From a virus, in the IMG/VR virus record IMGVR_UViG_3300047089_000307, positions 32,001 to 96,000 of that record: a stretch of 64,000 nucleotides of DNA; one strand, 5' to 3'. Of the stretch, positions 1 to 35,805 are shown piece after piece. Position 1 is the first letter of the stretch. Each line of letters begins with the position of its first letter. Under the pieces are notes generated by a model. It saw only the letters and a program-made list of their open reading frames with translations. It ran no database searches and was not told where the DNA came from. Made by a program: the position numbers and the translations under genes.

Positions 1-21
1 CTGGCTGACGGTGGTCGGATC

Positions 22-747
22 ATGAGGGACCTGCTGGTCGCCGTGCCCAGCCGGGGACGCCCTGCGAGCATCGCCCGGCTTGCGCAGGCGATGAAGGACA
101 CCTGCACGGCGGACACCGTGCTGGCGGTCGGCCTGGACGACGACGACGAGGGCCAGTACCCGCGGCTGCCCGGCGTGGAGTACGAGGTGCGCTCCGGGCT
201 GCGCCGGGTCACCGCGTGGACCAATGAGCTGGCCGTCCCCCGGGCCGGGCAGTACCGGGCGGTCGGCTCCCTCGGCGATGACAACGTGCCGCGCACGCCC
301 GGCTGGGACACGGCCATCCTCAAGGCCCTGGAGAGCACGCCGTTCGCATTCGGCAACGACCTGTACCCGCGGGACCCCGGGTCGATGAGCTGCCACATCT
401 TCATGCGCAGTGAGGTGGTGCAGGCCCTCGGCTACGCGGGGGCGCCGACGATCTCGCACATGTACGTGGACGTGGGCTGGTTCGCCTGGGGCACTGCCTG
501 CGGGATCACGTACCTGGACGACGTGGTCATCGAGCACATGCACTACTCCGTGGGCAAGTCCGGCCCGGATGAGGTCTACGCCGCCTCCTACGCGCTGACG
601 AGCACGGACCTCCAGAACTGGCATGCCTACAGCCGCGGCGGCCAGCTGAACGCCGACATCGCGAAGCTGGGCGGGACGCCGTTCACCCCCGAGTCGCTGT
701 CCGAGTTCAACCGGAGCATCAACGTGCCGGACCAGTGGCCGGGATGA
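22..747 (+). CDS. glycosyltransferase, GT-A/GT2-like
   Basis: N-terminal LLVAVPSRGRP, GDDN DxD-like motif, HMYVD, VIEHMH. Confidence 0.75.
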   Translation: MRDLLVAVPSRGRPASIARLAQAMKDTCTADTVLAVGLDDDDEGQYPRLPGVEYEVRSGLRRVTAWTNELAVPRAGQYRAVGSLGDDNVPRTPGWDTAILKALESTPFAFGNDLYPRDPGSMSCHIFMRSEVVQALGYAGAPTISHMYVDVGWFAWGTACGITYLDDVVIEHMHYSVGKSGPDEVYAASYALTSTDLQNWHAYSRGGQLNADIAKLGGTPFTPESLSEFNRSINVPDQWPG

Positions 748-1373
748 CCCAGCCCCTGGTATCGGTGGTTACCCCCACGTGGCAGCGGCACGCGATGCTC
801 ATGGACCGCTGCGTCCCGGCCGTGCAGGCGCAGGACTATGACAGCGTTGAGCACGTCATCGTCAGCGACGGCCCGGACAGCACGCTGGCCATCGTGCTCG
901 GCATGCTGTGCGGCAAGAACGCCTGGGGCAACGTCGTCTACCGGGAACTGCCGGAGCATCCCGCCGGCGAGCACTGGGGCCATCATGCCCGGCTGGCCGG
1001 CCTGGAGGTGGCCCGCGGGCAGTACGTCACCTACTGCGATGACGATGACGCCCTCCGGCCCCGGCACTGCGCGCTGATGGCCGCGGCCCTGGACGCGGCC
1101 CCGGAGGCGGGCTTTGCCGTGAGCCGCATGACGTGCCACGGCGGCCCGCACGAGTCGGTGACCGGCTGGGGACCGCTGGCCTGCGGCAACGTGGGAACCC
1201 CGATGATCATGCACCGCCGGGAGATCCTGGCGCACGGGACCTGGGGGCCGGCGTCCTTCACCGAGGACTGGGACCTCGTGGAGCGCTGGCTGGACGCGGG
1301 AGTCAGCTACGTGAGCGTGGACGCGGAGACCAGCGATGCCTGGCCCTCCCTGTACAGGCAGGGGCAGCAATGA
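744..1373 (+). CDS. glycosyltransferase family 2
   Basis: PLVSVVTPTWQR, VIVSDG, YCDDDD, EDWDL; ATGA overlap with the upstream stop. Confidence 0.9.
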   Translation: MTQPLVSVVTPTWQRHAMLMDRCVPAVQAQDYDSVEHVIVSDGPDSTLAIVLGMLCGKNAWGNVVYRELPEHPAGEHWGHHARLAGLEVARGQYVTYCDDDDALRPRHCALMAAALDAAPEAGFAVSRMTCHGGPHESVTGWGPLACGNVGTPMIMHRREILAHGTWGPASFTEDWDLVERWLDAGVSYVSVDAETSDAWPSLYRQGQQ

Positions 1374-1699
1374 CGGACGGCCATGACCGGGAACGTCATG
1401 CTCCTGCGCCGCAGCAGCGGGTGAGGGACCTGGAGCGCCAGTACGACGTTGCCCGGGAGCACGAGGAGAGGTACCGCAACGCCCTGCTGTGGGTGCGCAC
1501 GGTTGCCGGCATGCACTACCTCGGCGGGGCCTTCGAGCCCGAGCACATGCGCGACCTGGCCAACCTCGCCGCTAACGCGCTGGACGGCACGGACCTGCCA
1601 GACTGCGAGGAAAGCTCGGCCAAGGCCCGGAAGAAGGCCAGCAAGTGGGCGGAGCGGTTCGGGCGGGAGCTGGCTGAACAGGAGCTGGCGGAAGACTGA
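1370..1699 (+). CDS. hypothetical phage protein
   Basis: ATGA-coupled ORF with GC-rich third codon positions. Confidence 0.6.
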   Translation: MTDGHDRERHAPAPQQRVRDLERQYDVAREHEERYRNALLWVRTVAGMHYLGGAFEPEHMRDLANLAANALDGTDLPDCEESSAKARKKASKWAERFGRELAEQELAED

Positions 1700-1700
1700 C

Positions 1701-2342
1701 ATGGGCATCATGAGCAAGAACGGCCTGGACGTGCGCAGTTACTACCATTGCTTCGCGGCCGGGGCCTGGGCCGACCCGGTACGGGATCACTTCGCCGCGA
1801 TGGGCCGCAGCGGCCTGGACGAGACGGCGATCACGGTTGGCCTCGTTGGACCGCCGCGGGACCGGGACAATGCCCGGCAGCGGATCGGCCTGCTGTGCCG
1901 CAACTGGTGCATTCCCGAGCCGGCGCAGTGGCGCGAGGCAGAGGAAGGATGGGAGCAGGTAACGCTCCAGGCCATCTACGACGACGTCCAGAAGATCCCC
2001 GGTGAGTACGCGGTCCTTTACGCGCACGCCAAGGGCGCCTACGGCGACACGGACACGAACCACGCCTGGCGCCGGTCGATGACCCGTCACGTCGTGCGCG
2101 GCTGGGAGGACTGCGTGACGCTCCTCGGCAGCCATGACATGGTCGGATGCCACTACGTCTCCAACGACCATTACCCGCAGGACCCGCCGTTCTTCGGAGG
2201 GAACTTCTGGTGGGCCCGGGCATCGTACCTGCGCCGGCTGCCCCCGCCGGAGAACGAGAACCGCTGGACCGCGGAGATCTGGGCGACGCAGGCGAACCCC
2301 CTGGTCCATGACTTGCGGCCAGGATGGCCTGACTACCAGTGA
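1701..2342 (+). CDS. glycosyltransferase-like phage protein
   Basis: YAHAKG...WRRSM...GGNFWWARASYLRRLP pattern recalled from phage glycan-related proteins; GT neighbourhood. Confidence 0.55.
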   Translation: MGIMSKNGLDVRSYYHCFAAGAWADPVRDHFAAMGRSGLDETAITVGLVGPPRDRDNARQRIGLLCRNWCIPEPAQWREAEEGWEQVTLQAIYDDVQKIPGEYAVLYAHAKGAYGDTDTNHAWRRSMTRHVVRGWEDCVTLLGSHDMVGCHYVSNDHYPQDPPFFGGNFWWARASYLRRLPPPENENRWTAEIWATQANPLVHDLRPGWPDYQ

Positions 2343-2343
2343 G

Positions 2344-3069
2344 GTGATCCCCGTCAAAGCTTTCATCATCTTCCGTGACCGGGTGACGTACGGTCGCCAG
2401 TGCCTTGCGGCGTTCCAGGCCGCGGGCCTTGAAACGACGATCGTTGACCACGGCAGTACCTGGCCGGGGGCAGTGGACTGGCTCAGGGAGCTGAAGAAGT
2501 CGGGCGTCCCGGTGGTTGACGAAGGCGGCGGCAACCCGCGGGACCTATGGCAGCGGGACTGGTTCCGCAGGGCGTGCGCCCGGGAGAAGTACGTCGTGAA
2601 TGACCCGGACGTCATACCGTCGCAGGAATGCCCGCCCGACTGGCCGCAGTACCTGTCGGAAGTCCTCGACAGGCACCCGAACTACCACAAGATCGGCCTC
2701 GGGCTGCGCATCGACCGCATCCCGGAGCACTACACGCAGCGCGATAACGTCATCGGCTGGGAAGCGCACTTCTGGGATCACGAGGTAGAGCACGGCGTGT
2801 ATCACGCGGACGTCGACACTACGCTGGCCGTGCACATCCCGATGATGGACATGGGCTGCCATTCCTTCAGCGCGATGCGCACGGGCTTCCCGTACGTTGC
2901 CGACCACGTGGCCTGGTACGAGGACTACCGGAACCTGAGCGAGGAGCTGGCGTACTACCACAGCCACGCGGAGGAGGGGATCTCCTGCTGGACGCCGCGG
3001 AAGGAAGCTCCGTGGGATGCCGGGGGAGCGATCCTGCCGGGGCGCGGCATGGCTACCGGGACTGACTGA
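2344..3069 (+). CDS. glycosyltransferase family 2-like
   Basis: FIIFRDR, IVDHGST, VVNDPDV (DxD), ADVDTTLA. Confidence 0.75.
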   Translation: MIPVKAFIIFRDRVTYGRQCLAAFQAAGLETTIVDHGSTWPGAVDWLRELKKSGVPVVDEGGGNPRDLWQRDWFRRACAREKYVVNDPDVIPSQECPPDWPQYLSEVLDRHPNYHKIGLGLRIDRIPEHYTQRDNVIGWEAHFWDHEVEHGVYHADVDTTLAVHIPMMDMGCHSFSAMRTGFPYVADHVAWYEDYRNLSEELAYYHSHAEEGISCWTPRKEAPWDAGGAILPGRGMATGTD

Positions 3070-3099
3070 GCTGCTGTCTCATGGAGTATCCTCACCGGC

Positions 3100-3210
3100 A
3101 TGAGTGACTGGGCTGGCAAGCCGAGCATGCGAAGCAAGGCCCGGCTGGTCATGGCCGCGGATGGCGCGAGCATCGAGGCGGCGATGGCCGCGCCCGGGGC
3201 GGGAAAGTGA
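3100..3210 (+). CDS. small hypothetical protein (36 aa), probably leaderless
   Basis: TATCCT-7 nt-ATG; stop overlaps the GTG start at 3207. Confidence 0.4.
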   Translation: MSDWAGKPSMRSKARLVMAADGASIEAAMAAPGAGK

Positions 3211-3419
3211 AGTCCCGCGTCACGCTGGAGCCGTCTGAGCTCAGTGAGGACGGACGGGTCATCGAAGCCTGGATCAGCGTCGAGCGCCTCGGTGACTGCG
3301 ACGATGACGCTACGGACCGGGACCTGTTCCTGTCCCCGGAGGAGATGCAGTTCCTGTACCAGGGGATGAGGCGCTACTACGAGGACGGCGTGTGGACGAC
3401 CGGGACGGTGGAGTGGTGA
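3207..3419 (+). CDS. hypothetical protein
   Basis: GTGA-coupled at both ends. Confidence 0.55.
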   Translation: MKSRVTLEPSELSEDGRVIEAWISVERLGDCDDDATDRDLFLSPEEMQFLYQGMRRYYEDGVWTTGTVEW

Positions 3420-3877
3420 GCGCCAAGTGGGACGAGCGGTACCTGAACCTGGCCACGCTGGTGTCGTACTGGAGCAAGGACCGCAGTACGAAGGTCGGCT
3501 GCGTGATCGTGGGCGAGGCCGGCCAGGTGCTCTCCACCGGGTACAACGGCTTCCCGCGCGGCATTGGCGACGATGTAGCGCAACGGCACGCTCGCCCGGC
3601 CAAGTACCTGTGGACCGAGCACGCTGAGCGGAATGCCGTCTATAACGCGGCCCGGACGGGCACGTCCCTGCTCGGGTCGTCGCTGTACCTGCCGTGGTTC
3701 CCCTGCGCGGACTGCGCCAGGGCCATCATCCAGTCGGGGATAGCCGTCCTCGTGGTTGTCGAGGTCAAGCGCGGCGACGCCCAGTGGGATGAGAGCATCG
3801 CGGTCAGCAAGGAGATGCTCGCGGAGGCCGGAGTCATTGTCCGCTGGCACGAGCCGGGGGTGAGCGCGAGCGCGTGA
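3416..3877 (+). CDS. dCMP (deoxycytidylate) deaminase
   Basis: SKDRSTKVGCVI, TGYNGFPRG, HAERNA, PCADC zinc motif. Confidence 0.92.
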   Translation: MSAKWDERYLNLATLVSYWSKDRSTKVGCVIVGEAGQVLSTGYNGFPRGIGDDVAQRHARPAKYLWTEHAERNAVYNAARTGTSLLGSSLYLPWFPCADCARAIIQSGIAVLVVVEVKRGDAQWDESIAVSKEMLAEAGVIVRWHEPGVSASA

Positions 3878-4041
3878 GCGAGATCTTCTTCCTGCTCGTG
3901 TGCCGGGAGTGCGGTAACCCGGGAAAGCCCTTGATCATGCCCTTCGGCTCGGCGGCCGACCGGGGGAAGTGGGCCTCGGAGCACACGAGGGCCACCGGGC
4001 ATGACCGCTGGTGGGTGCAGGACGAGGTGCGGGAATCATGA
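3874..4041 (+). CDS. small Zn-binding hypothetical protein
   Basis: MSEIFFLLVCRECG...EHTRATGH; GTGA-coupled. Confidence 0.5.
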   Translation: MSEIFFLLVCRECGNPGKPLIMPFGSAADRGKWASEHTRATGHDRWWVQDEVRES

Positions 4042-4430
4042 GCGGCTGCCAGCGGGAGGAGAGGCCAGTGCATGAGGTCAAGGTCACCGGCAACATCATG
4101 GCGGACGGCGTCGATATCTGGGTGACGATGAAGTTCGAGGGATCGCCGCGTCGTATCCTGCACTTCCGGGAGGGCCTTCCGGACTGGGACGAGGCGGACG
4201 GGACCGCGCAGCCCCCGACGATGACGCTGCCTGATGACGCGGGCCGGGCGCTGCTGGAGCAGCTGCTACGGCATTACGCCGGGTCGCAGGACCTGCACAC
4301 GGTCCGCGCTGACCTGGTGCACGAGCGCAAGCGCGTTGACAATCTCATCAGCGCGCTCACGCAGGCGCTGGCCGTGACCATTCAGCAGCGTATTACAGTG
4401 TCTTCTCGTGAGGATCTTCGCAGGCCATGA
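4038..4430 (+). CDS. hypothetical protein
   Basis: ATGA-coupled ORF; start uncertain. Confidence 0.5.
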   Translation: MSGCQREERPVHEVKVTGNIMADGVDIWVTMKFEGSPRRILHFREGLPDWDEADGTAQPPTMTLPDDAGRALLEQLLRHYAGSQDLHTVRADLVHERKRVDNLISALTQALAVTIQQRITVSSREDLRRP

Positions 4431-5481
4431 TGGTGGGTCAGGCTGCATGTACTACCGGATCAAGGTCCCCCTGGAGGAGCTGGCCCGGCACGGTCATGAG
4501 GTGACCTTCCGCTCCGGCGGGAATGAGGAGGGTAACCGGCCCATCACCCTGGCGGAGATGGCCGAGCATGACGTGGTGATCGGGCAGCGGTTCAATCACT
4601 ACGCGGGCATGGGCACCTGGCGCCGCGCCCGCGGGCCGTCCAGCCGGCTGGTCTACGAGATTGATGACGACGTCTTCTCCGTGACCCCGGTCAACTGGCA
4701 GGCGTACCACGTCTACAGCCAGCCGGAGGTCCGCGAGGCTGTCATGCACCAGGCCCAGGTATCGGACCTGGTGACCGTGACCACGGAGCACCTGGCCGCG
4801 GTGATGCGCGAGCACACCGGCAACGGCAACGTCCTGGCGCTGCCGAACTGCGTCCCCGGCTGGGTGCTGGACATGGAGCGCAGGCCCCGGCAGCGCCCGG
4901 CGATCGGCTGGGCGGGCGGCGCCAGCCACGGCAGCGACGTCGGGCTGCTCGTCAGCCCCGTGCGCCGGTTCCTGAAGCGGTTCCCCGGCTGGGACTTCCA
5001 GCTTGGCGGCACGGACTTCCGGGAGACCTTCGCCCGGGAGGGGTCGCCGCGCGGGAGGCTGCTGCACGCCCGGTGGGTGCCGGTCTGCGAGGACGCGCGG
5101 GGCTATTACGAGACCGCGGACTTCGACATCGGCCTGGCCCCGCTGGCGGGAACCCCGTTTGACCTGTCGAAGTCCTGCGTCAAGGTACTGGAGTACGCGG
5201 CCCGGGGCATTCCCTCGATCGCCAGTGACTGCGAGGTTTACCGGTCGTTCATCCGCCATGGCGAGAACGGCTTCCTGGTGAAGAGGGACCATGAGTGGCT
5301 GAAGTACGCATCCGAGCTGGCCAGCGACGGGGGCCTGCGGCTGGCGATGGGCCAGGCAGCGCGGGACACGGCGCGGGAGTGGACGATCGAGGCGAATTAC
5401 CACCTATGGGAGCAGGCGTACCGGAGCCTGTTTAAGGTCAAGTCTCTTAGCGTATTATGGCCTTCGTGCGCGAGCCAGTAG
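4408..5481 (+). CDS. glycosyltransferase, GT-B (GT4-like)
   Basis: YEIDDD, IGWAGGASH, DIGLAPL...KSCVKVLEYAARGIPSIAS, ENGFLV. Confidence 0.9.
   Translation: MRIFAGHDGGSGCMYYRIKVPLEELARHGHEVTFRSGGNEEGNRPITLAEMAEHDVVIGQRFNHYAGMGTWRRARGPSSRLVYEIDDDVFSVTPVNWQAYHVYSQPEVREAVMHQAQVSDLVTVTTEHLAAVMREHTGNGNVLALPNCVPGWVLDMERRPRQRPAIGWAGGASHGSDVGLLVSPVRRFLKRFPGWDFQLGGTDFRETFAREGSPRGRLLHARWVPVCEDARGYYETADFDIGLAPLAGTPFDLSKSCVKVLEYAARGIPSIASDCEVYRSFIRHGENGFLVKRDHEWLKYASELASDGGLRLAMGQAARDTAREWTIEANYHLWEQAYRSLFKVKSLSVLWPSCASQ
5441..5455 (-). promoter_or_regulatory. phage promoter/operator motif (ATACGCTAAGAGACT on - strand)
   Basis: 14/15 identical to 53515-53529; contains the TACGCT -10-like hexamer. Confidence 0.45.
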
Positions 5482-7241
5482 CCAGGCAGTACCGTTACCG
5501 GGCCTATCCCGATGAGGAGCAGGCTGACCTCCTGGACTTCTACGCAGCGGGCGCCCGCGCGTTCTGGAATAAGAACGTCGCGTGGCTGCGCGCCATGGAG
5601 GGAAGTGAGGGGCATGACGACCTTGGCGCTGGCCGCCAGCTGAGCGAGGCTTACGCTTACCTCGCCAGCGTGCCCGGCATCGCTGAGGCCCTGAAGAGCA
5701 GGAAGCATCCGGAGCATGAGCGCTGGACGGCCTTCCTGCGAAAGGCAGAAAGGCCGCGCCAGCCCGGCTGGCATGCGTGGACGCGGCATTACGGGGGTGC
5801 CAGGCTCCGCGGGCAGCTGAGCGGGAACTTCTCTGCCGCCGTGCACGCTGCGCGGGAGAGCGGGATGACGTTCTGGCACGGGGGCGAGCAGCACCCGGTC
5901 TCGGCGGTCCCGTCGAAGGTCCTGCACGGGGCGTGCGGGAGCAAGGGCCAGCTCAAGGCCGCCGTGGACGCTGTCATGAAGAAGCGCGCCGCTGGCAAGC
6001 GCGCAGAGCTGCCCCGCTGGCGTGCCCGGCATGAGAGCCAGAACCTGCGCTGGCAAGTCCAGGATGGTCCCCGGAACGCGACCCGGGAGTCCCTGGTGAC
6101 GGTAACGGGCACGCGGCACGCCACCGTGCCGCTGGTAACGACGCGCGGGCACGAGGGTAATAAGAGCCTGCGCATCCGCTATCATCGCGAGCTCCCCGCG
6201 GACGCCTCAGTGTCCTTCATGCAGGTGACCTGGAATCCGGGGACCGGCTGCTACTTCGTGACGCTCACGCTGACGACCGCGCAGTACGAGGTTCCGGCCA
6301 CGACGGGCATGGCCGGCATCGACCGGGGCATCGTAAAGGCTGCTGTCACTTCGGACGGGGAGTACTACGATTCTCCGGGACTGAACCAGGGGCGCCGTCG
6401 CCGCGAGCTCCTGCTCCAGCAGTCCCTTGACTGGAAGCGCCGCGTGCTGCCGTGCAAGGGCCGGTGCGCGCACGAGCCAGGGCAGTGCTGGCGCACGTCA
6501 CTACGGTATGCACGGGTCGTGACGGCCCGGCAGCGGCTCCTGGACGCCCAGGAGGACCTCATCGATGACGGGGCGCACAAATTCTCCCGGGCTATCGCCC
6601 GCCGGTACGCGGTCGTCGTGCTTGAGGACCTGGCGAACCTGATGACGGCGTCCACGGCGAAGGGCACGGTAGCCGCCCCCGGCGTGAGCGTGCGCGCCGC
6701 CGCCGGACGCAACCGGGAGGTACGCGCGGCTAACTGGGGGCGCATTGAGCAGTACCTGGGGTATAAGGCAGGGCAGCTCCTCGGCGTCCCGGCGCCGTAT
6801 ACGTCGCGGACATGCCCGCGATGCGGGTATGTTAGCGTCATGAACCGGCCCTCCCAGGCGGAGTTCCGGTGCGGGTCCTGCGGACTCAGCGGCAACGCTG
6901 ACGTGATCGCGGCCGGCAATATCGTTAATGCAGGGAAAACCGCCCGCGCGCTGCGGGATAACGGGCAGGGATCGTCCTCCGGGATTAACCGGGGGCCTGG
7001 CGCTAGCCGGGAGCCTGCCAACACTCACAACTTTACAGTGGCCCCGGGCGAGCGCTGCGGTAGTGCGCCCGATCCCGGTCAGCGCTCGCAGGCAGGTGAG
7101 CAGCCAGGAATCGTTACCGAGCTCGACGGAACGGTGATCCCGGAGACGTGGGGCATCCCCGGTGCTCGCATCCGCGGGGGAAACCGCAGGTCACGACGGG
7201 CGAAAAAGCCGAGCGGTGGCAACACTGCCGGAGCCGGGTGA
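5457..7241 (+). CDS. CRISPR-associated TnpB/Cas12-like RNA-guided RuvC endonuclease (compact type V effector candidate)
   Basis: IS605 OrfB-type N-terminus YRYRAYPDEEQ..GARAFWN; RuvC-I GIDRG (D289), RuvC-II VVLEDL (E390), Zn ribbon CPRC..CGSC (C453/456/472/475), RuvC-III NADVIAAGNI (D482); abuts the CRISPR array. Confidence 0.92.
   Translation: MAFVREPVARQYRYRAYPDEEQADLLDFYAAGARAFWNKNVAWLRAMEGSEGHDDLGAGRQLSEAYAYLASVPGIAEALKSRKHPEHERWTAFLRKAERPRQPGWHAWTRHYGGARLRGQLSGNFSAAVHAARESGMTFWHGGEQHPVSAVPSKVLHGACGSKGQLKAAVDAVMKKRAAGKRAELPRWRARHESQNLRWQVQDGPRNATRESLVTVTGTRHATVPLVTTRGHEGNKSLRIRYHRELPADASVSFMQVTWNPGTGCYFVTLTLTTAQYEVPATTGMAGIDRGIVKAAVTSDGEYYDSPGLNQGRRRRELLLQQSLDWKRRVLPCKGRCAHEPGQCWRTSLRYARVVTARQRLLDAQEDLIDDGAHKFSRAIARRYAVVVLEDLANLMTASTAKGTVAAPGVSVRAAAGRNREVRAANWGRIEQYLGYKAGQLLGVPAPYTSRTCPRCGYVSVMNRPSQAEFRCGSCGLSGNADVIAAGNIVNAGKTARALRDNGQGSSSGINRGPGASREPANTHNFTVAPGERCGSAPDPGQRSQAGEQPGIVTELDGTVIPETWGIPGARIRGGNRRSRRAKKPSGGNTAGAG
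6930..7215 (+). ncRNA. putative omega-RNA/tracrRNA-like structured region overlapping the 3' end of the nuclease ORF
   Basis: Perfect 10-bp stem 7048-7057/7080-7089, further hairpins at ~7110-7135 and 7174-7187, CACTCAC (7022-7028) complementary to repeat GTGAGTG. Confidence 0.5.
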
Positions 7242-8039
7242 GTGAGGCGACACGCTCTTGCCGTGCAGCTGGTCAATCTGGCCCTGGTGGCAACACTGCC
7301 GGAGCCGGGTGAGTGAGGCGACTGGGCACCGGGCGAGGCGTTCTGCCCGGCGTTGCCGGTGGCAACACTGCCGGAGCCGGGTGAGTGAGGCGACTGGGCA
7401 CCGGGCGAGGCGTTCTGCCCGGCGTTGCCGGTGGCAACACTGCCGGAGCCGGGTGAGTGAGGCGACAGGTGGTGGGACGGGCTGCCCGGGTTGGTCAGCA
7501 TGGTGGCAACACTGCCGGAGCCGGGTGAGTGAGGCGACCAGCCCGCGCCGTCGCTCCGGAGAACCTTGTATTCGGTGGCAACACTGCCGGAGCCGGGTGA
7601 GTGAGGCGACAAGCAGCAGACGCCGCCGGTGAGCGTGTCCTCGGGCCGTGGCAACACTGCCGGAGCCGGGTGAGTGAGGCGACTCGGTGCGCCTGCGGCT
7701 ACGGGTGGCCGGCTTGATCGGTGGCAACACTGCCGGAGCCGGGTGAGTGAGGCGACGGCTTCCAGGCGTCGGCGAGCCGGACCACCTCGCGCGTGGCAAC
7801 ACTGCCGGAGCCGGGTGAGTGAGGCGACCGCGACTGCTGCAATGCGCTAGACAAGGCAGGTGGCAACACTGCCGGAGCCGGGTGAGTGAGGCGACAGTGC
7901 AGCGCTGATGTCAGCCTGCGCCCGCGACTTGGTGGCAACACTGCCGGAGCCGGGTGAGTGAGGCGACATCAGGACCGGCCTTACCGGTCGACGCCTCCCG
8001 GCGGTGGCAACACTGCCGGAGCCGGGTGAGTGAGGCGAC
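7216..8039 (+). CRISPR. CRISPR array: 12 identical 36-bp repeats GTGGCAACACTGCCGGAGCCGGGTGAGTGAGGCGAC, 11 spacers of 31-37 bp (spacers 2 and 3 identical)
   Basis: Repeats start at 7216, 7287, 7359, 7431, 7503, 7575, 7648, 7721, 7793, 7860, 7932, 8004. Confidence 0.98.
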
Positions 8040-10073: not shown

Positions 10074-10589
10074 ATGGCCTGGACCGCATCCGCCATCTTC
10101 CAGCAGGCGATGCTCAACCCCATCGCCGGGCGCAGCTGGACTACTGCCGCGCCGACGACGTACTCCTCGCTGTCGGCCGACACGATCAACGTCTCCCTGT
10201 TCGGCACGCTGACCCCGGACAAGACTGCCGCCGTGGGCAGCACCGGGTACAACACGGGCGTCTGGGTCACCGGCTCCGAGATCACTGACGCGACCAACTG
10301 GGTGGCGGGCGGCCGGGCGCTGGGCTCCAAGGCGTTCGCGATCGACACCGGGTCGTCCTCGATCTGCTTCACCGCGGCGAACCTGGCCGGCGGCGGCACG
10401 GTCACGCTGACGGCATTCTTCGGCTGCTTCGTCTACGATTTCACGATCACGGCAGGCACGGTCGCCAAGCAGGGCCTCTGCTACAACTACTTCGGCGGCT
10501 CCCAGACGGTGACGGGCGGCACGTTCACCATCCTCTGGGCGACCCCGGTCGGCGCGGCCGTCACCGCCGTCTTCAACATCTCGGTGTAG
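10074..10589 (+). CDS. virion structural protein
   Basis: Thr/Gly/Ala-rich, beta-type composition; FGGSQTVTGGTFTI pattern recalled from phage structural proteins. Confidence 0.6.
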   Translation: MAWTASAIFQQAMLNPIAGRSWTTAAPTTYSSLSADTINVSLFGTLTPDKTAAVGSTGYNTGVWVTGSEITDATNWVAGGRALGSKAFAIDTGSSSICFTAANLAGGGTVTLTAFFGCFVYDFTITAGTVAKQGLCYNYFGGSQTVTGGTFTILWATPVGAAVTAVFNISV

Positions 10590-11161
10590 CCGGCGTGAGC
10601 ACGGTCCAGGTAGCTGAGCAGGCGGCGGGCACTCGCCACGTCGTCCTTCAGCAACCCGACCGCCCGGTTGCAGTTCACGCACAGCAGGCCGCGTACGCAC
10701 TTCCCGCAGGAGTCGGCACCTGGACAGCAAGCGTGATCGTGGTCGACGGCGAGCTTGTCTCTCCGGGGGCCGGGATTAAGGCAGATTGCGCATACCCCGT
10801 CCTGGGAGGCGAGCATTGCGTCGTAGGCGTCACGGGTCAGGCGATAGTGCGCCATGAGCCACCAGCTACGCTGCCGCGCCTGGCCGTCCGGCGTCTGGTT
10901 GTACTCCTGGCTGTAGCAGCGCACGCACTGGCCTGTCTTGTACGAGGCGCGTTTTCCGCATGCGCACCTGACCCACTCGTACTCAGGCCGTGGACTGCTG
11001 CGCGGGCGCATTTCTATCTCCGAGCGCAGCAGCGAATTACGGATAACTGCCCGGTTCACTCCCAGTTGCTCTGCGAGCTGCTTGAGCGTGAGCCGGTCAT
11101 CAACGTAAAGCTTGGCGATATCCGCGTCTTGCTCCGTAGAGAACTTTCGTTTGCGTCCCAT
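10487..11161 (-). CDS. endonuclease VII-family (His-Me finger) nuclease with N-terminal HTH
   Basis: YDAMLASQDGVCAIC..LAVDHDHACC..CVRGLLCVNCNRAVG; antisense to the structural operon. Confidence 0.88.
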   Translation of the reverse strand: MGRKRKFSTEQDADIAKLYVDDRLTLKQLAEQLGVNRAVIRNSLLRSEIEMRPRSSPRPEYEWVRCACGKRASYKTGQCVRCYSQEYNQTPDGQARQRSWWLMAHYRLTRDAYDAMLASQDGVCAICLNPGPRRDKLAVDHDHACCPGADSCGKCVRGLLCVNCNRAVGLLKDDVASARRLLSYLDRAHAGYTEMLKTAVTAAPTGVAQRMVNVPPVTVWEPPK

Positions 11162-15598: not shown

Positions 15599-16534
15599 CC
15601 GCCACGGTCTTCTTTTGACTCCGTTAACGAGATCGCGCTGCTCAGCAACACGTTCCTGAACAGCTCGCAGGCCGCGGCCGACCCCACGGCCGTCAGCTGC
15701 ACCGTCTCGGACCCGTCCGGGACCTCGGTCACGCACACGTTCGGCGGCGCGTCCCCCGCGGATATCGTCAAGGTAGCCACGGGCAAGTACACGCTGTCGG
15801 TGGCGTGCGCGCCGGCCATCGCGGGCGTGGACGGGCTGTGGCAGTTCGAGTGGGCCGGCACCGGGGCGGTCAGCGACGTCCAGCCGGGAACCTGGCGGGT
15901 GCTGCCGGCCAGCGTCGCCACCTGGTACATCGGGCTGGAGGAGTTCAAGGACCGGCTGGGCATCGCCGACGATAGCGATGACTCCCAGGCGCAGATCGCC
16001 ATCCAGACTGTCTGCGGGTGGGTCAACCAGTGGACCGGCCAGCACTTCAACCGGATCACCGAGGCACGCACGTTCGTGCCGCACGACATCTGCAAGGTCA
16101 ACATCGACCCGCTGGTGTCGGTCACCACGTTCCTGGTCGACCGCGACGGCAACGGCGTCTTCGGCGAGACCTGGACGCTGAACACCGACTACCAGCTGCG
16201 CATCGGGCCGGATTCCTACAACCTGAACGCGACCGGCATCCTGCGGCCGTACCGGCAGGCCGTCACCGTGCAGTCCGGTAAGCTCTTCCCGTTCATCTAC
16301 CCGTTCTCCCACCAGGACCGGGTGCAGGTCACCGGTACCTGGGGCTGGTTCGCGGTCCCCGCGGAGGTTGCCCAGGCGACGTTCATCCTCGCCGCGGACC
16401 TGTTCAAGATGAAGGATGCCCCGTTCGGCGTGGCGGGCGTCAGCGACTACGGCATTACCCGCATTCAGGCCAATCCCTGGCTCATCGAGCTGCTGCGGCC
16501 GTACAAGAACACAAAGCGGGCGGTCGGCGTATGA
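15595..16534 (+). CDS. head-tail connector/adaptor (gp6-like) with N-terminal beta domain; apparent +1 frameshift at TTC TTT TGA C (15610-15619)
   Basis: [43 protein letters not shown]; coding frame continues upstream to 15617. Confidence 0.75.
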
Positions 16535-16793
16535 TTCCCTCCTTCAAGGACGCGACTGCCGTACTCCGTCAGACCCTAACGGGGAAGGAAGAGCACGGTC
16601 ATGCTCATGAGGCGCCAACGTGGCTGCGCGTGCAGTTGCCGCGCTTGCGCGAATGGAGGCTGCTCGATGTGCCTTAACGGGCCCGCGCACTGACATGAGG
16701 CCGCCCGCAAGCTCGCGCCCTGTCCTGACGACGGCGAACTGCCCCGCGCTCGTGCCCGTGACGAACGTCAGGGCGGGCGGGAGGAGGTAAGCC

Positions 16794-17459
16794 GTGGCCA
16801 GGGCGCCGAAGGTCAAGAAGAAGTCCGCTGCCCAGGCTGCCGCGGGGAAGAAATTCGCGGCCGGCGGCCGGGCGGCCATGGCGTCCAAGCGCGCCGCTTA
16901 CGCCAAGAGCCACCATGGCGCGAAGCTGCCCCCGTCCAAGGCGCAGACGCAGGCGTCGATGAAGTGGGCGTCGGCCGGCCGCGCGGCCCAGGCGGCTAAG
17001 AAGCAGGGCAAGAAGCCGCCTGCCAAGGCAGCGGCCACCGCGCCGCCCGGCACCCGGCCTTCGCTGCCCGGCTGGTCGATGGGCTGCAACGACGCCGGGC
17101 CGACGTGCGCCTCGGCGGCCGTGGCCAACCACCTGCTCGCGAGCACGGGCCTGGAGATGACCGAGCAGGAGATAGCGCTGCTGCACATGCTGGCAGGCGG
17201 CGACGACGGCGCGGACATCCCGTCCGTGCTGGAGGTCCTGCTCGCGCGGCCCGCGCTGGTAGCCGGGGCCCGCGGCGGCCTCGCGCGGTTCTTCCAGGCT
17301 GACGAGCAGGTCATCGTCCCGGGCCTGGTCGTCGTGACCGACCTCGGGCACGCCCGGCACGCGGTGCTGTCCCACCCCGGCGGCATGGTGAGCTGGGGTG
17401 GCATCCGGCCCTGGGAGGGCAGCCCCCTGGAGGCGTGGGCGATCGAGTGGGCCGCCTGA
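16794..17459 (+). CDS. protein with basic Lys/Ala-rich N-terminus and papain-like C-terminal domain
   Basis: GGAGG SD; CASAAVANH..DDGADI..HAVL..VSWG. Confidence 0.5.
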   Translation: MARAPKVKKKSAAQAAAGKKFAAGGRAAMASKRAAYAKSHHGAKLPPSKAQTQASMKWASAGRAAQAAKKQGKKPPAKAAATAPPGTRPSLPGWSMGCNDAGPTCASAAVANHLLASTGLEMTEQEIALLHMLAGGDDGADIPSVLEVLLARPALVAGARGGLARFFQADEQVIVPGLVVVTDLGHARHAVLSHPGGMVSWGGIRPWEGSPLEAWAIEWAA

Positions 17460-17533
17460 ATGCATAATGAAGCGCGTTTATCGCCCGATAAAGACAGCAG
17501 GCTTTGCATCCGGGGCGGTATACGCTGTGCGCC

Positions 17534-17692
17534 ATGGCTGATGAGCCTCCCCGGGAAGACCCGATAACCGCCCTCCAGGTGAGCGCGGTGCAGCAGCATG
17601 AGATGTTCCTCGCCTGGCAGGTGGCGGGCTTCGATGCCGCCCAGGCCCTGGAGCTGCTGAAGGCCGTGATCATGGCCATGATCCTGAAGTAG
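17534..17692 (+). CDS. small hypothetical protein (leaderless)
   Basis: TACGCT-7 nt-ATG; HEMFLAWQVAGFDAAQALEL. Confidence 0.6.
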   Translation: MADEPPREDPITALQVSAVQQHEMFLAWQVAGFDAAQALELLKAVIMAMILK

Positions 17693-17711
17693 GCCATGGC
17701 ATACTTTGCCC

Positions 17712-18155
17712 ATGGCAGACCTCCCTCCCGACGCGGCGGCCGAGCTGCGCCTCCTGCGCGCGGAGGTGAGCGCGCTGCGCCCGCACGTGGCAGCGGCAGC
17801 GGCCGAGGTAGCGGCGCTGCGCGTGCACGTGGCAGCAGCGGCCGTGCCCCCGGCCGTCATGCGGCACGGCTGGCTGAGGCACGTGGTCAAGGACCTGGAG
17901 ACGGACCCGCACGTCCAGTACAAGGTCCACCTGTACGGTGCGATTTACTGGCTGGTGAACATCCCGGCCGTCGTCCTGCTTTACCTTTTCGCCCCGGGGC
18001 TGTGGCTGAAGCTGGGCATCTTCATCACGCTGCTCTACTCGATATACGCCAATTTTGCCACCGACTACGGAGGAATGTCCGCGGCGATGGCGTCCTTCGG
18101 GCAGTCCCCGCTGCCGGAGTTGCCTGTTCAAGAGCATGTCGACGCGCCTGACTAG
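17712..18155 (+). CDS. membrane protein
   Basis: Two hydrophobic segments after a short coiled repeat. Confidence 0.6.
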   Translation: MADLPPDAAAELRLLRAEVSALRPHVAAAAAEVAALRVHVAAAAVPPAVMRHGWLRHVVKDLETDPHVQYKVHLYGAIYWLVNIPAVVLLYLFAPGLWLKLGIFITLLYSIYANFATDYGGMSAAMASFGQSPLPELPVQEHVDAPD

Positions 18156-18177
18156 TAGCTAGCGTACTCTAGATCCT

Positions 18178-18744
18178 ATGCAAAATTTGCTACTGACGTG
18201 GCCGGAAGCGGCGCGGTTTCCGCTCGCGATGCCCGTGGGAAAGCGTGTAGTAGCGGTGGCCGAGTCTGATGTCCGGCGGTTCATGGGCATGACGGAGGCT
18301 GACGGGAGGTGCCTGCGGTTTACCCGCTGGAAGGACCCGAGGACGGCTTACGGGATGTTCGGGCTGAAGTGCCAGGCGACGGTCCTCGCGCACCGGTTCG
18401 CCTACACGGTCTGGCGCGGGCCGATTCCGGCCAGGCTCACGATCGATCACCTGTGCCATAACGAGGCGGCACAGGCGGGCATGTGTGACGGCGGTCCCTG
18501 TGCTCACCGCGCTTGCGTCTGGCCGTGGAGCCTCCACCCGACTACGCTCTCCCTGAATAAGGCGGCCAGCCCGACGCGCAGCAGGGGCGGAGGCGAGAAT
18601 CACCGCAACGCCCGCAAGACGCACTGCGACAACGGCCATGAGTTCACGCCGGAGAATACGTACGAATGGCGGGGACAGCGGCATTGCCGGGCCTGCCGGG
18701 CAACGGACGCCAGGAACTTCCGGGAGAAAGGCAGTCACGCATGA
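18178..18744 (+). CDS. HNH endonuclease
   Basis: AHRFAY..GPIP..TIDHLC..C..; KTHCDNGHEFTPENTY..CRAC. Confidence 0.85.
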   Translation: MQNLLLTWPEAARFPLAMPVGKRVVAVAESDVRRFMGMTEADGRCLRFTRWKDPRTAYGMFGLKCQATVLAHRFAYTVWRGPIPARLTIDHLCHNEAAQAGMCDGGPCAHRACVWPWSLHPTTLSLNKAASPTRSRGGGENHRNARKTHCDNGHEFTPENTYEWRGQRHCRACRATDARNFREKGSHA

Positions 18745-18926
18745 GCACGTTCGTGCTGTCCGAGCTGAGTCACGGCGGCGCCTACCGGACGAACTGGCAC
18801 TGCCAGCCGCCGGACCCCGGGGTGCTGTTCCGGGTGACCCGCGAGGAATGGTCCGTCAGCAGGAATGGCCTGGACGTCCGGGACGTCTACGAGATCGAGG
18901 TCCTGGACGGGGAGGTCCGGGCCTGA
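18741..18926 (+). CDS. hypothetical protein
   Basis: ATGA-coupled. Confidence 0.45.
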   Translation: MSTFVLSELSHGGAYRTNWHCQPPDPGVLFRVTREEWSVSRNGLDVRDVYEIEVLDGEVRA

Positions 18927-19008
18927 CTTCGCGGTGATACGGGATTAGACTGACCCCTGATGCTGCGGCCTCCGGGAGCCAGCCGGGAACTGATCCCTGG
19001 AGCCAGCC

Positions 19009-19434
19009 ATCGCCGACCTCGCCGCCATCCGCACCGCGCTGGCGAACCGGATCACCGCCGGGACCGGCCTGCGGACGCTGCCCGAGGCGCGAGACCAGGT
19101 CAGCCCCCCGGTTGCCGTCATCCTGCCCGCCCCGGGGGTGATCCAGTACGGGAACACCGTGGACGGGGCGTTCACCGTCAACCTCGTCGTGCTGCTGCTC
19201 ATCAGCGACGCCGCGCCGACTGAGAAGGTCCAGCGGGCCCTGGACGCCTACCTCGGGATCGGCGCGCACGACGCCGTCCCGTCCAGCATCGCCGGGGCCA
19301 TCCAGGACGACCCGACGCTCGGCGGCACCGTGCACTTCGCGCTGGCCGTCTCCGCGAGCGGGTACGGCCGCGTCGACTACGCCGCGGTCACCTACTTCGG
19401 CGCCCGGGTAGCCGTGCAGGCGGGAGCTATCTGA
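19009..19434 (+). CDS. tail terminator/completion protein (apparent start ATC at 19009)
   Basis: ADLAAIRTALANRI..LDAYL..SIAGAIQDDPTLGG..YFGA; GGAG SD precedes ATC. Confidence 0.7.
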   Translation: MADLAAIRTALANRITAGTGLRTLPEARDQVSPPVAVILPAPGVIQYGNTVDGAFTVNLVVLLLISDAAPTEKVQRALDAYLGIGAHDAVPSSIAGAIQDDPTLGGTVHFALAVSASGYGRVDYAAVTYFGARVAVQAGAI

Positions 19435-22572: not shown

Positions 22573-24033
22573 TCAGAATTTTACCGGGTAGAGCGCGGCT
22601 ATGAGAGAAGCCATGTCCTGCCGGTAGGACTGGAATGGCGTGATCGTCGCCTGGCCGGTGTCCTCGTCGTACTCATAAGCGCCGGACATGAAGATCACCG
22701 GGCTGGGCATGACCTCGCCGCCGTAGGACGGGTCGGTGACGACCACCTGGTAGACCAGCCCGGCCTGGTCGCTGCCGAGGTCAGCCGGGGTCCCCGCAGT
22801 GTTCATCACCTGGCCCGGCCCCACGGTGAACGGCTGGGCGAAGCTGGCCCGGACGTAGCGGGTGAGGATGTTCTGGCCGATCGCCGCTGCTGCTGACGCC
22901 TTCAGCACCCCGGCCGAGCTGATGTCCAGGTAGTACTCCATGGGCCCGTGCCTGGCCACGGAGTTGCCGTTCACCACGTGAGAGATCGCGAACGTGGCGG
23001 GAACGGCCTTCTTGGTCGCGGTGGCCGCGATGTCCGCGGTGGCCTGGTAGCGCAGGAACAGCACGTTGATGTCGGCGGCAATGGTGCGCGCAATGGGCGT
23101 GCTGGAGACCAGGAGGCGGTCCGGCGCCTGCGTCGGGTTCCCGTTGAGGTCCTGCTTGAACGGGAACACCCTCAGCTTCCACGGCCCGGCCGGCGGCGCG
23201 GAGGCGGTTCCCGGCGAGACCATCCACAGCAGGCCGCCCCCGGTGATGAGCAGGTTCAGGTGCGCGGTGACCGTTTCCGACGCGCTGTCCTGCTGCTGGC
23301 CCAGGAAGATGCCGGCCGGCTTGCCGATGCCCGGGTTCGCCCAGCGCATTCCGCGGAAGATGGCCTGGTTCACCGCGTCGTCAGCGTTCCAGGTCGTGTA
23401 GAGCGCGGCGAAGTCGCTGCCGTACGTCCCGGCCCCGTGCGCGGTGACCGTCCAGCCGTCCCCGGTCGCCGCGGGCTCGTTCAGCTTGCCCTCCCAGACG
23501 CAGGACGCGCCGCGCCAGACCTGGATGACGCGCCCGGGGTTCAGCGCGTCCGTGCGCAGTTCCGGGGGCGTGCGCAGCAGCAGGCTCAGGTTCTCCGGGC
23601 CGCCGGGGCAGGTGTAGCTGCGGGTCATGTTCGTCACGTGCCCGATGGCGCCGAGCCAGCGCGGGCTCTTCGGCGCCGGGACTGACTGCGCATTGTCGGT
23701 GCTCACCGGGGCGGCCAGCGGGGACGGGGTGAAGAAGACGTACCAGTTCTGCGTCCCGGTGACCGGCAGCGTGCCGACCACCGTGAAGACCGTGGGCTCC
23801 TTGAGGCTCCCGCTGGCGTACAGCCGGAACTTATCCCCGGTGAACGCCGGCGCCACGGGGGTGAGCGTGCTGTTCGTGGGCGCGATGAAGAAGTCATACC
23901 CGCCGAATGCGCCGTACTGCGCCTGCGCCTGGCCGCCCGGGGCCTTGCCCCCGCCGGACAAGATGACGGACCAGAACTGCCCCGGCGGCTCAAAAGTGAC
24001 AGCCTGGCTGTAGTTAACCTGCTCAAGTGCCAC
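22573..24033 (-). CDS. minor tail protein
   Basis: Last gene of the tail operon; RGASCVWEG pattern. Confidence 0.6.
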   Translation of the reverse strand: MALEQVNYSQAVTFEPPGQFWSVILSGGGKAPGGQAQAQYGAFGGYDFFIAPTNSTLTPVAPAFTGDKFRLYASGSLKEPTVFTVVGTLPVTGTQNWYVFFTPSPLAAPVSTDNAQSVPAPKSPRWLGAIGHVTNMTRSYTCPGGPENLSLLLRTPPELRTDALNPGRVIQVWRGASCVWEGKLNEPAATGDGWTVTAHGAGTYGSDFAALYTTWNADDAVNQAIFRGMRWANPGIGKPAGIFLGQQQDSASETVTAHLNLLITGGGLLWMVSPGTASAPPAGPWKLRVFPFKQDLNGNPTQAPDRLLVSSTPIARTIAADINVLFLRYQATADIAATATKKAVPATFAISHVVNGNSVARHGPMEYYLDISSAGVLKASAAAAIGQNILTRYVRASFAQPFTVGPGQVMNTAGTPADLGSDQAGLVYQVVVTDPSYGGEVMPSPVIFMSGAYEYDEDTGQATITPFQSYRQDMASLIAALYPVKF

Positions 24034-24068
24034 TCATCATCACCTCTCCGGCGTTGCCCATCGCGTGC

Positions 24069-24323
24069 TCACGGGATATCGCTGGCGGCTACCGCAGCCC
24101 GCACGAGGCAGTCCTTCGCCTCCACGAGCTTGTGCAGCCCGCGCGTCAGCTCCGGGTCGTCGGCGCTGATCATGCCGAGCAGGGCCTGCGCCAGGGTCGC
24201 GACGGCCAGGGACACGTCGCGCGGCGGCCCGGCCGGCAGCTGCCCGTAGTCGAACCACCGGGTGACGTCCTGCACCGCGCGGTGGCGGCCCGTGGCGTCA
24301 ACGGCGTGCGGGATGCCCATCAC
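24069..24323 (-). CDS. phage hypothetical protein
   Basis: FDYGQLP..LTRGLHKLVEAKDCLVRA pattern. Confidence 0.65.
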   Translation of the reverse strand: MMGIPHAVDATGRHRAVQDVTRWFDYGQLPAGPPRDVSLAVATLAQALLGMISADDPELTRGLHKLVEAKDCLVRAAVAASDIP

Positions 24324-24613
24324 TGCGCGCCTATAACCTGGGTGGAGCTATTCACGAATGAGTACGGCAGAACGTAAGCGCCGCCGGGGGCCAGGCCGTG
24401 GTAGATGTTGCCGAGGGCATTCAGGTCCGCGGCCATCGACCGCATCAGCGCCAGGTCCCCGGTGGTAACGCCGATGCCGGTCATGTCGCCGTCAGACTGG
24501 GCGGACAGCCAGGCGTAGAAGTTCTGCGCGCTGATGACGGAATCCCGTACGGCTACCGCCCGCTGGGTGGCGGCGCTGGCGATCAGCCCGGGATTGGCGA
24601 TGGCGGTGAACAT
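24320..24613 (-). CDS. hypothetical tail-region protein
   Basis: SD present; coupled to downstream gene. Confidence 0.55.
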   Translation of the reverse strand: MFTAIANPGLIASAATQRAVAVRDSVISAQNFYAWLSAQSDGDMTGIGVTTGDLALMRSMAADLNALGNIYHGLAPGGAYVLPYSFVNSSTQVIGAQ

Positions 24614-24626
24614 GAGGCTCCCCTGG

Positions 24627-26426: not shown

Positions 26427-26502
26427 CAGGCGTCACCGCGCTCGATGACGCAGTGCCTGCCATGACCCCAGAGGACTGGTAGGCTCCGTGAGATAGACAT
26501 TT

Positions 26503-34180: not shown

Positions 34181-34181
34181 G

Positions 34182-34541
34182 TCAGAAAGTCCCCTCCAGC
34201 GACCACAGGCCGGTGGTCAGGAAAGGCTCCTTCACCCGGTCAACCCGGGGGTCCTCCAGGAAGAAGGCGGGGTCGCCGGGGGCGTTGGCGCTGGCCCAGA
34301 AGAAGCCGGCGGACGTGTGCCCGCGGGCCGTGTGGATGGCCGCCTTGGTGAACCCGGGCGGGCGGGCGTTGCTGCGCGAGCTCCAGGCCGGCGTGGCGCG
34401 CACGGGCACGACGGCGCGGGCGACGATCGCGGCCTGGCCGGCCAGGTCCTGGATGAACAGGCCGACCGGGCCGTCTTCGTCGTTCACGTACGCGTGGATG
34501 GCGGCATCATCAAGACGGACGTCGCTCACTGCTTCATCCAC
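34182..34541 (-). CDS. neck/tail completion protein (HK97 gp10-like)
   Basis: ARAVVPVR..PFLTTGL pattern; tail context. Confidence 0.55.
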   Translation of the reverse strand: MDEAVSDVRLDDAAIHAYVNDEDGPVGLFIQDLAGQAAIVARAVVPVRATPAWSSRSNARPPGFTKAAIHTARGHTSAGFFWASANAPGDPAFFLEDPRVDRVKEPFLTTGLWSLEGTF

Positions 34542-35466: not shown

Positions 35467-35469
35467 CGC

Positions 35470-35805
35470 TCACGCCTCCCCGAGCTGCGCGGTCAGGCGG
35501 GCGATCTGCTCGCGGGCCCAGGTCTCGCCGTCACGCGTCTCGTTCTCGGTCGCCGCCAGGACCCGGTCCTCCAGGTCCGGCGCGTCGTTGCCCTGGTGGT
35601 GGCGCATTGCGTTCACGATCGTGCCGACCAGGTTGTAGCGCTTGGTCCGGTGCGTGAACAGGGTCATGTAGAGCAGGCGGCGCGTCTCGTCCAGGTCCTC
35701 GGCATTCGAGGGCCGGGCGGAGCGGGTGCCGTCCTGGGCGACGTCCTGGTCGCGTGCCGTGAGGTTGTCCTGCATTTCCCGGACTGCCTCGTCTTCCGTA
35801 GCCAT
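35470..35805 (-). CDS. hypothetical protein
   Basis: ORF between major tail protein and chaperone. Confidence 0.55.
   Translation of the reverse strand: MATEDEAVREMQDNLTARDQDVAQDGTRSARPSNAEDLDETRRLLYMTLFTHRTKRYNLVGTIVNAMRHHQGNDAPDLEDRVLAATENETRDGETWAREQIARLTAQLGEA

What the first reader, a model, noticed from the sequence alone, without database searches (positions are those of the whole stretch)
5457..8039. Phage-encoded minimal type V system: TnpB-like nuclease whose ORF runs into a CRISPR array
Seen: a 594-aa ORF with TnpB architecture (OrfB N-terminus, intact D289/E390/D482 triad, CxxC..CxxC ribbon) is followed with no gap by 12 identical 36-bp repeats. Its stop codon (7239-7241) lies inside repeat 1. 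There is no tnpA, cas1 or cas2 in 64 kb, and both flanks are phage genes. Known: Cas12 lineages arose repeatedly from IS200/IS605 TnpB, and phages carry adaptation-less type V systems. Inference: this may be an independent TnpB-to-Cas12 recruitment in an actinophage, used against competing elements or host genes, and a candidate compact RNA-guided nuclease.
Basis: partly seen in the sequence, partly recalled or inferred. Interest (0 to 1): 0.92.

Follow-up and report, generated by a model that had tools for sequence, protein, structure and literature searches.

The report
Phage Cas12-like nuclease with captured leader
A soil actinobacterial phage carries a small transposon-derived nuclease gene whose last 170 bases are a copy of the host's type I-G CRISPR 'leader', followed by its own guide array, which suggests that the phage built a one-gene CRISPR weapon that borrows the host's machinery to collect new guides.

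Summary
Observation confirmed: 594-aa TnpB-like ORF (D289/E390/D482 intact) whose stop lies in the first of 12 identical 36-nt repeats. It belongs to a small, well-supported clade (about 20 proteins; every member with long context is in a phage). Six loci have intact arrays at the stop codon. The clade has a private Cys insert and C-terminal peptide, and is not nested in V-U4/Cas12n (AU p=2e-5). New result: the ORF's last ~170 nt are not a Cas12n-type tracrRNA. They match, in exact register (motifs at -132/-124, -52/-30, -5), leaders of actinobacterial type I-G arrays beside cas4g/1g-cas2 and csb2. Repeat and spacer lengths match I-G, but the repeats have lost the I-G processing hairpin and end GCGAC. 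Best model: a TnpB captured a host I-G leader and array. The phage borrows Cas4/1-Cas2 for spacers, and the TnpB uses the crRNAs against competing elements. No activity, target or PAM was shown; the tracrRNA is not located. One phage has leader plus array without the nuclease, so a host-Cascade mini-array remains a rival. The scan noted similar leader capture (type I-D) in other, unrelated systems. New variant of a known kind.

The parts
5457..7241 (+). TnpB-derived Cas12-like effector, 594 aa (start may be GTG 5466); WED/REC/RuvC/TNB fold
   Evidence: AF2 model mean pLDDT 72, best VIA-align match ISDra2 TnpB 8h1j Z 18.7, rmsd 6.1, 350 aligned
5604..5801 (+). REC-region insertion (about residues 50-115) peculiar to this member of the clade
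   Evidence: alignment A2; low to moderate pLDDT
6453..6509 (+). Clade-specific Cys insert in the RuvC/bridge region (C333, C337, H339, C344-W345), probable second zinc site (inferred)
   Evidence: 15 of 16 clade proteins, 0 of 165 other TnpB-like proteins (the pattern was drawn from the clade)
6924..7048 (+). Remnant of the TnpB omegaRNA 5' region after RuvC-III; candidate tracr/scaffold (unproven; missing in L010, L014, P0003)
   Evidence: stem-loops with CGC-containing loops in most homologues; GC3 falls in the last 100 codons
7049..7215 (+). Captured type I-G CRISPR leader inside the coding sequence: motif pairs GCTCGCA/CAGGTSA at 7084/7092 and 7164/7186, GAGC just before repeat 1
   Evidence: model R1 hits host I-G leaders, E 1.7e-13 to 1.8e-8; neighbours cas4g/cas1g, cas2, csb2; same register
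7134..7154 (+). Conserved C-terminal peptide (LIPxxWG type) encoded between the two leader motifs; conserved as protein
   Evidence: 14 of 16 clade proteins, 0 of 165 others; third codon positions vary; kept in members that lost the leader; pLDDT 81 at residues 551-560
7216..8039 (+). CRISPR array: 12 identical 36-nt repeats ending GGCGAC, 11 spacers (31-37 nt); transcribed on + with the leader end at the gene
   Evidence: polarity from distal repeat decay in L004, L014, L349
5431..5458 (+). AT-rich junction: possible TAnnnT promoter; TTTAA is a possible insertion site that replaced the upstream glycosyltransferase's own stop (weak)
   Evidence: homologous glycosyltransferases end 0-4 residues after this point; the sigma-70 scan found nothing

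Best explanation
A phage-encoded minimal type V system formed when a TnpB gene came to lie directly upstream of a copy of the host's type I-G leader and array, and its reading frame extended through the leader into repeat 1. (1) The leader works as DNA: it lets the host's Cas4/1-Cas2 add 35-38-nt spacers at the gene-proximal end, so the phage needs no cas1/cas2. Homology and register are shown; use is inferred. (2) One transcript carries gene and array. Repeats have drifted from the I-G form, losing the Csb2 hairpin, and keep a 3' GCGAC handle. The sequence change is shown; escape from host Cascade is inferred. (3) The TnpB binds handle plus spacer, probably with an omegaRNA-derived piece from its own ORF tail pairing to the handle, and cuts dsDNA next to a 5' motif using the intact RuvC (inferred from TnpB/Cas12n/TranC). 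(4) Likely targets are co-infecting phages or integrative elements (by analogy to Cas12r; no target found).
For: Intact arrays at or beside the stop in window, L004 (21+ repeats), L010 (6), L014 (13), L349 (6+) and P0003 (11-aa unit repeated 24 aa apart); a first repeat or its start at the contig end in L006, L007, L009, L350. No adjacent array at the other TnpB loci screened (281 loci in all), apart from two V-U4 proxies. Clade 100/95. Leader model hits 3 of 141 genomes strongly, each an I-G leader, with motifs at -130 to -132 (2 of 3) and -52/-30 from repeat 1, as in the phages. Host repeats are 36 nt ending ATTGCGGC and spacers 34-42 nt; phage repeats are 36 nt ending GCGAC (L014: ATTGCGAC), spacers mostly 35-38 nt. 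Members without the leader (L005, L008, L101, L291) have only short decayed GCGAC-ended units, as expected if the leader feeds the array and the handle is what the nuclease needs. Catalytic triad is at least 90% conserved. No cas1/2/4 or tnpA in three complete phages. Precedent: Cas12r of Thermus phages proposed to borrow host I-E adaptation (10.64898/2026.04.20.719267).
Against: No protospacer or PAM was found. No tracrRNA was securely located: there is no long anti-repeat, the omegaRNA-like element is absent in three members with intact arrays, and it is atypical in the window. Phage G407 has leader plus 16 repeats but no clade member, so the array can persist without this nuclease.
Confidence: 0.62

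Rival explanations
1. The array is a phage mini-array that uses the host type I-G Cascade/Cas3 for both acquisition and interference. The TnpB is a passenger that inserted upstream, or an accessory.
For: Leader and repeat lengths are of I-G origin. G407 carries leader plus array with only ordinary IS TnpBs elsewhere.
Against: Phage repeats lack the I-G hairpin position and the ATTGCGGC handle (7-12 of 36 identical to the window repeat). Gene and array stay fused across proteins only 30-48% identical. A peptide encoded inside the leader is conserved. GCGAC-ended units persist behind the gene after leader loss.
Confidence: 0.15
2. The ORF tail is mainly an RNA scaffold (tracrRNA), as in Cas12n. 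Its UCGCA motif pairs with the repeat's 3' UGCGA, and the leader was co-opted as RNA. This can hold together with the best explanation.
For: A stem at 7049-7054/7083-7089 is 94% paired, and its one-sided changes are G-U. Folding z is -2.4 to -4.3 in four of seven tails. Cas12n precedent (PMC12216341).
Against: No compensatory covariation above shuffles. Window z is only -0.6. The motif does not covary with the repeat end (G407 ends GAGAC). The same motifs occur in host I-G leaders. The model finds nothing at V-U4 loci.
Confidence: 0.2
3. It is a member of a type V branch already listed but not characterised (one of V-U6 to V-U45 of Altae-Tran 2023, or a TranC clade of Jin 2025), so only the leader mechanism is new.
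For: About 50 independent recruitments are catalogued (PMC10691335). Many TranC clades exist, some viral. IMG/VR-type data were mined.
Against: The TranC clades examined in 10.64898/2026.03.27.714800 lacked a Cas12n-like unstructured tail. LaTranC matches the clade profile only weakly (76 bits). The clade is rare: about 20 clusters among 1.8 billion proteins.
Confidence: 0.3
4. It is a divergent Cas12n (V-N/V-U4).
For: Best PADLOC hit Cas12u4, 122.9 bits. Best PDB sequence hit RdCas12n. Disordered tail, no cas1/2, actinobacterial.
Against: Ordinary TnpBs score 172-197 bits on the same model and true members 546-651. AU tests reject one clade with V-U4 (p=2.3e-5) and with V-U4 plus its nearest TnpBs (p=0.024). 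Repeats and tail are unrelated.
Confidence: 0.06

Closest known systems
Cas12n (type V-N / V-U4; RdCas12n PDB 9J09)
   Same: TnpB-sized, intact RuvC, actinobacterial, no cas1/2 here, disordered C-terminal tail of the ORF overlapping a non-coding element next to the array (PMC12216341)
   Different: Separate clade; tail is an I-G leader, not the Cas12n tracrRNA; different repeat; private Cys insert and C-terminal peptide; phage-borne
Cas12r (Thermus Lalka phages; 10.64898/2026.04.20.719267)
   Same: Phage TnpB-like nuclease of about 560 aa followed by an array, no adaptation genes, host type I adaptation proposed; active and RuvC-dependent
   Different: 29-nt I-E-like repeats, thermophile TnpB branch; borrowing was inferred there from repeat and spacer likeness, whereas here the whole host leader is found in register inside the ORF
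TranC intermediates (Jin 2025; CauTranC9 in a phage) and V-U6 to V-U45 (Altae-Tran 2023)
   Same: Independent TnpB-to-CRISPR transitions of 300-600 aa
   Different: Membership not testable here; split-omegaRNA tracr not shown for this clade
ISDra2 TnpB (IS200/IS605)
   Same: Best structural match (Z 18.7); domain order and catalytic triad
   Different: About 190 aa longer, no tnpA, multi-spacer array with leader
Type I-G (I-U) CRISPR arrays of Actinomycetes
   Same: Leader motifs and register, 36-nt repeat, 35-38-nt spacers, TGCG-C-like 3' end
   Different: No Cascade, Cas3 or Cas4/1 genes; repeat hairpin and handle altered

Membership tests
TnpB/Cas12 superfamily | WED-REC-RuvC-TNB architecture with D-E-D triad | tested here: met
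Type V CRISPR-Cas (generic) | RuvC effector stably linked to a CRISPR array across independent loci | tested here: met
Type V CRISPR-Cas (generic) | crRNA-guided, PAM-dependent DNA targeting | not testable with these tools
   no protospacer found; needs experiment
Cas12n (V-N/V-U4) | Falls in the V-U4 clade | tested here: not met
   AU p=2.3e-5 and 0.024 using proxies L261-L270 (L261: 651 bits on PDLC00933, E 6.5e-80 to RdCas12n); a deeper sister relation is not rejected, p=0.31
Cas12n (V-N/V-U4) | Disordered C-terminal tail | tested here: met
   pLDDT <50 at 506-550 and 564-594
Cas12n (V-N/V-U4) | tracrRNA overlapping the ORF | tested here: inconclusive
   tail is not homologous to V-U4 tails and matches I-G leaders; an omegaRNA-like remnant at 6924-7048 may serve
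Cas12n (V-N/V-U4) | A-rich PAM | not testable with these tools
   no targets
Cas12f / Cas12e / C2c8 / Cas12a (NCBIfam) | Reaches the curated cut-off | tested here: not met
   Cas12f2 47.6/450, C2c8 35/350, CasX 36.8/200
Cas12m / Cas12k | Inactivated or rearranged RuvC; Tn7 genes for V-K | tested here: not met
   triad intact; no Tns genes noticed in the ORF list (not searched by HMM)
IS200/IS605 or IS607 element | tnpA (Y1 or serine) in the element or genome | tested here: not met
   the window's record is incomplete
TranC / V-U6-U45 clades | Placement in a published clade | not testable with these tools
   sequences and supplements not held
Type I-G array | I-G leader motifs in register with repeat 1 | tested here: met
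Type I-G array | Repeat with Csb2 hairpin and ATTGCGGC-type handle | tested here: not met

The most novel reading that the evidence does not exclude
An undescribed, phage-restricted Cas12 subtype that arose by capturing a host type I-G leader-array and turning the leader into part of its own gene. The same 170 nt are then a Cas1-Cas2 landing site, protein-coding sequence with a conserved peptide, and possibly guide scaffold. The enzyme is active and is fed by host Cas4/1-Cas2 in trans.
Probability: 0.35. Interest if true: 0.85.

Novelty: new variant of a known kind. Interest (0 to 1): 0.72.

Why it matters
Two questions are open: how arrays arose beside TnpB (duplication of omegaRNA versus capture of an existing array; PMC10691335 leaves both open) and how type V systems without cas1/cas2 get spacers. 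Here a recognisable host I-G leader sits in exact register inside the nuclease gene. That is direct sequence evidence for capture, and it names the donor integrase, so both points can be tested with a known enzyme (I-G Cas4/1-Cas2, PMC10274657). The clade also shows intermediate states: leader lost with array decay, nuclease lost, solo repeats. It offers 480-590-aa candidate editors, though many compact Cas12s are already known.

Tried and rejected
Rfam: no match in the window or in host leaders. Exact repeat in IMG/VR: none. Spacer searches in phage and plasmid collections, 401 Actinomycetes genomes, own and related phages: only chance hits; spacer-8 hits were in unrelated genes. PADLOC Cas12u4 as a diagnostic: rejected, ordinary TnpBs score higher. 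Long anti-repeat: none. Covariation between a CGC-loop and repeat position -6 looked attractive but depends on register and is not at the homologous place in the window; not claimed. RNA structure of the tail: no compensatory signal. A strict leader pattern in 401 genomes gave chance-level hits; the profile search succeeded. Foldseek and VIA ranks do not separate TnpB from small Cas12s. Supplements of PMC10691335 and PMC12216341 and the 2022 Cell paper on virus-encoded systems were not held. No complex prediction was run.
Full report
Observation. The ORF at 5457-7241 encodes 594 aa with D289, E390, D482 and two CxxC pairs. Twelve identical 36-nt repeats start at 7216 and end at 8039, and the stop codon lies in repeat 1. 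Spacers are 31-37 nt, and spacers 2 and 3 are duplicates. Pfam and NCBIfam call the protein a TnpB-family nuclease, below every curated Cas12 cut-off. The window lies in an 88.6-kb linear IMG/VR record estimated 42% complete, with tape measure, tail and head-tail genes and two DUF397 genes. No cas1, cas2, cas4, Y1 tnpA or resolvase was found in it or in three complete phages carrying relatives. Identical sequence occurs in two other JGI assemblies, so the locus is unlikely to be an assembly artefact.

The family. A profile search of 1.8 billion proteins shows a clear top group of about 15 clusters above the TnpB background. With loci from IMG/VR and metagenomes this gives about 20 members, 29-41% identical to the window protein. 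They share a Cys-rich insert in the RuvC region (15 of 16, versus 0 of 165 other TnpB-like proteins) and a C-terminal LIPxxWG-type peptide (14 of 16, versus 0 of 165) whose third codon positions vary. Every member with long context is in a phage: 210, 101 and 130 kb circular records, plus phage-like neighbours for P0003 and P0023. Intact 36-nt arrays ending GCGAC begin at or next to the stop codon in L004, L010, L014 and L349, and in P0003 as read from its protein tail. L006, L007, L009 and L350 are cut in or just after repeat 1. L001, L005, L008, L101 and L291 have decayed arrays. Repeats decay at the far end, so the leader end is at the gene and the + strand is the crRNA strand. Among 281 TnpB-like loci screened, adjacent arrays occurred only in this family and in two V-U4 proxies. 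The window's phage shares its glycosylation and tail modules with G404 and G405, but the cassette sits at a different site in each, so it has moved between or within phages.

Not Cas12n. The best HMM and PDB hits are Cas12u4 and RdCas12n, and Cas12n is known to have a disordered tail with an ORF-overlapping tracrRNA (PMC12216341). But ordinary actinobacterial TnpBs outscore the window on that HMM, and top V-U4 loci score 546-651 bits (L261 matches RdCas12n at 6.5e-80). In a 54-protein tree the family is a clade (100/95). Forcing it together with V-U4 is rejected (p=2.3e-5), also when V-U4's nearest TnpBs are added (p=0.024). A deeper sister relation is not rejected (p=0.31). The model was LG+G4, the V-U4 rows are proxies, and the sister TnpB lineage is unresolved. 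The predicted structure is closest to ISDra2 TnpB (Z 18.7, rmsd 6.1, 350 aligned).

What the tail is. The last ~170 nt before repeat 1 hold two copies of a motif pair, GCTCGCA then CAGGTSA, read in different frames, at fixed distances. A pattern scan found the same element in front of a 16-repeat array in phage G407, with no ORF over it and no family member in that complete genome. So the element is conserved as nucleic acid. My first reading was a tracrRNA, but compensatory covariation was absent, and a profile of the element did not match V-U4 loci. The profile, run on 141 Actinomycetes genomes, gave three strong hits (E 1.7e-13, 3.0e-11, 1.8e-8), each directly before a long array. The neighbours are cas4g/cas1g plus cas2 (L361), a cas2-like gene (L362) and type I-G csb2 (L363); a weaker hit (L365) precedes two I-G-type repeats. 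The register is the same in hosts and phages: motifs at about -132/-124 and -52/-30, and GAGC at the junction. L361 comes from an unpublished genome (G009); L362 and L363 carry the claim without it. Host repeats are 36 nt, have a strong central hairpin and end ATTGCGGC. Phage repeats are 36 nt, end GCGAC (ATTGCGAC in L014) and have weaker or displaced hairpins. Spacer lengths agree. Members that lost the leader (L005, L008, L101, L291) are those whose arrays shrank to short GCGAC-ended units.

Mechanism. Shown: a TnpB clade fused to I-G-derived leaders and arrays, an intact active site, and no adaptation genes. Inferred: the host's Cas4/1-Cas2, which integrates at the leader-repeat junction in a PAM-oriented way (PMC10274657), supplies spacers. 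The repeats drifted away from Cascade use and towards a short 3' handle for the TnpB. An omegaRNA remnant just after RuvC-III (stem-loop with a CGC loop in most members) or the leader's own UCGC may pair with that handle. The enzyme then cuts dsDNA of competing phages or elements, as shown for Cas12r. I put this at 0.62. The main rival is a mini-array served by host Cascade with a passenger TnpB (0.15); G407 supports it, while repeat drift and long-term gene-array fusion argue against it. No protospacer, PAM or expression evidence was obtained.

Comparison and novelty. Independent TnpB-to-Cas12 transitions are common (about 50; PMC10691335), and phage examples exist (Cas12r, CauTranC9, Cas12p), so the class of event is known. 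I could not check the unnamed V-U and TranC branches. What I did not find described is a type I-G leader embedded in the coding sequence of a type V effector, with a conserved peptide written between its motifs; the literature search was limited. This scan has noted leader capture from type I-D in unrelated phage systems, unchecked by me. Verdict: new variant of a known kind, interest 0.72.

Noticed in passing
G406 (IMGVR_UViG_3300036820_000002) 31026, 38260, 111282, 128778; loci L314-L317: Four solitary copies of the phage's CRISPR repeat lie far from its array, without leader; at 38260 the repeat's ATG opens a small Cys-rich ORF. Downstream sequences have no match in the genome. Not seen in G000 or G404.
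   Followed up: partly
L345 (G407, IMGVR_UViG_3300027857_000001, about 34.5-36 kb): Orphan I-G-type leader plus 16-repeat array (repeats ending GAGAC) beside a tyrosine integrase and a tRNA-like att fragment, with three ordinary IS TnpBs elsewhere and no clade nuclease.
   Followed up: partly
L291 1900-2080, L101 2850-2914, L008 2545-2660, L005 5430-5820: Minimal arrays of about 10-nt GCGAC-ended handles with 20-47-nt periods behind intact nucleases; they may be decay or a reduced guide format.
   Followed up: partly
window 1-5481 and G000 upstream: Large cluster of glycosyltransferases, sugar epimerase and dCMP deaminase shared with phages G404 and G405; possibly DNA or virion glycosylation.
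   Followed up: no
window 10487-11161 (-) and 36457-36753 (+): Endonuclease VII-type and NUMOD4 homing-endonuclease-like genes inserted among structural genes.
   Followed up: no
window 22573-36363 (-) versus 15800-19434 (+): Tail genes (tape measure, Dit, major tail) lie on the strand opposite to the head-tail adaptor and tail terminator.
   Followed up: no
L262-L264: High-scoring V-U4 (PDLC00933) proteins with no array downstream: the model also covers array-less TnpBs.
   Followed up: partly
L017 2565-2973, L018 2554-2834: 66-nt-period repeat arrays a few kb from distant TnpB genes in viral contigs.
   Followed up: no
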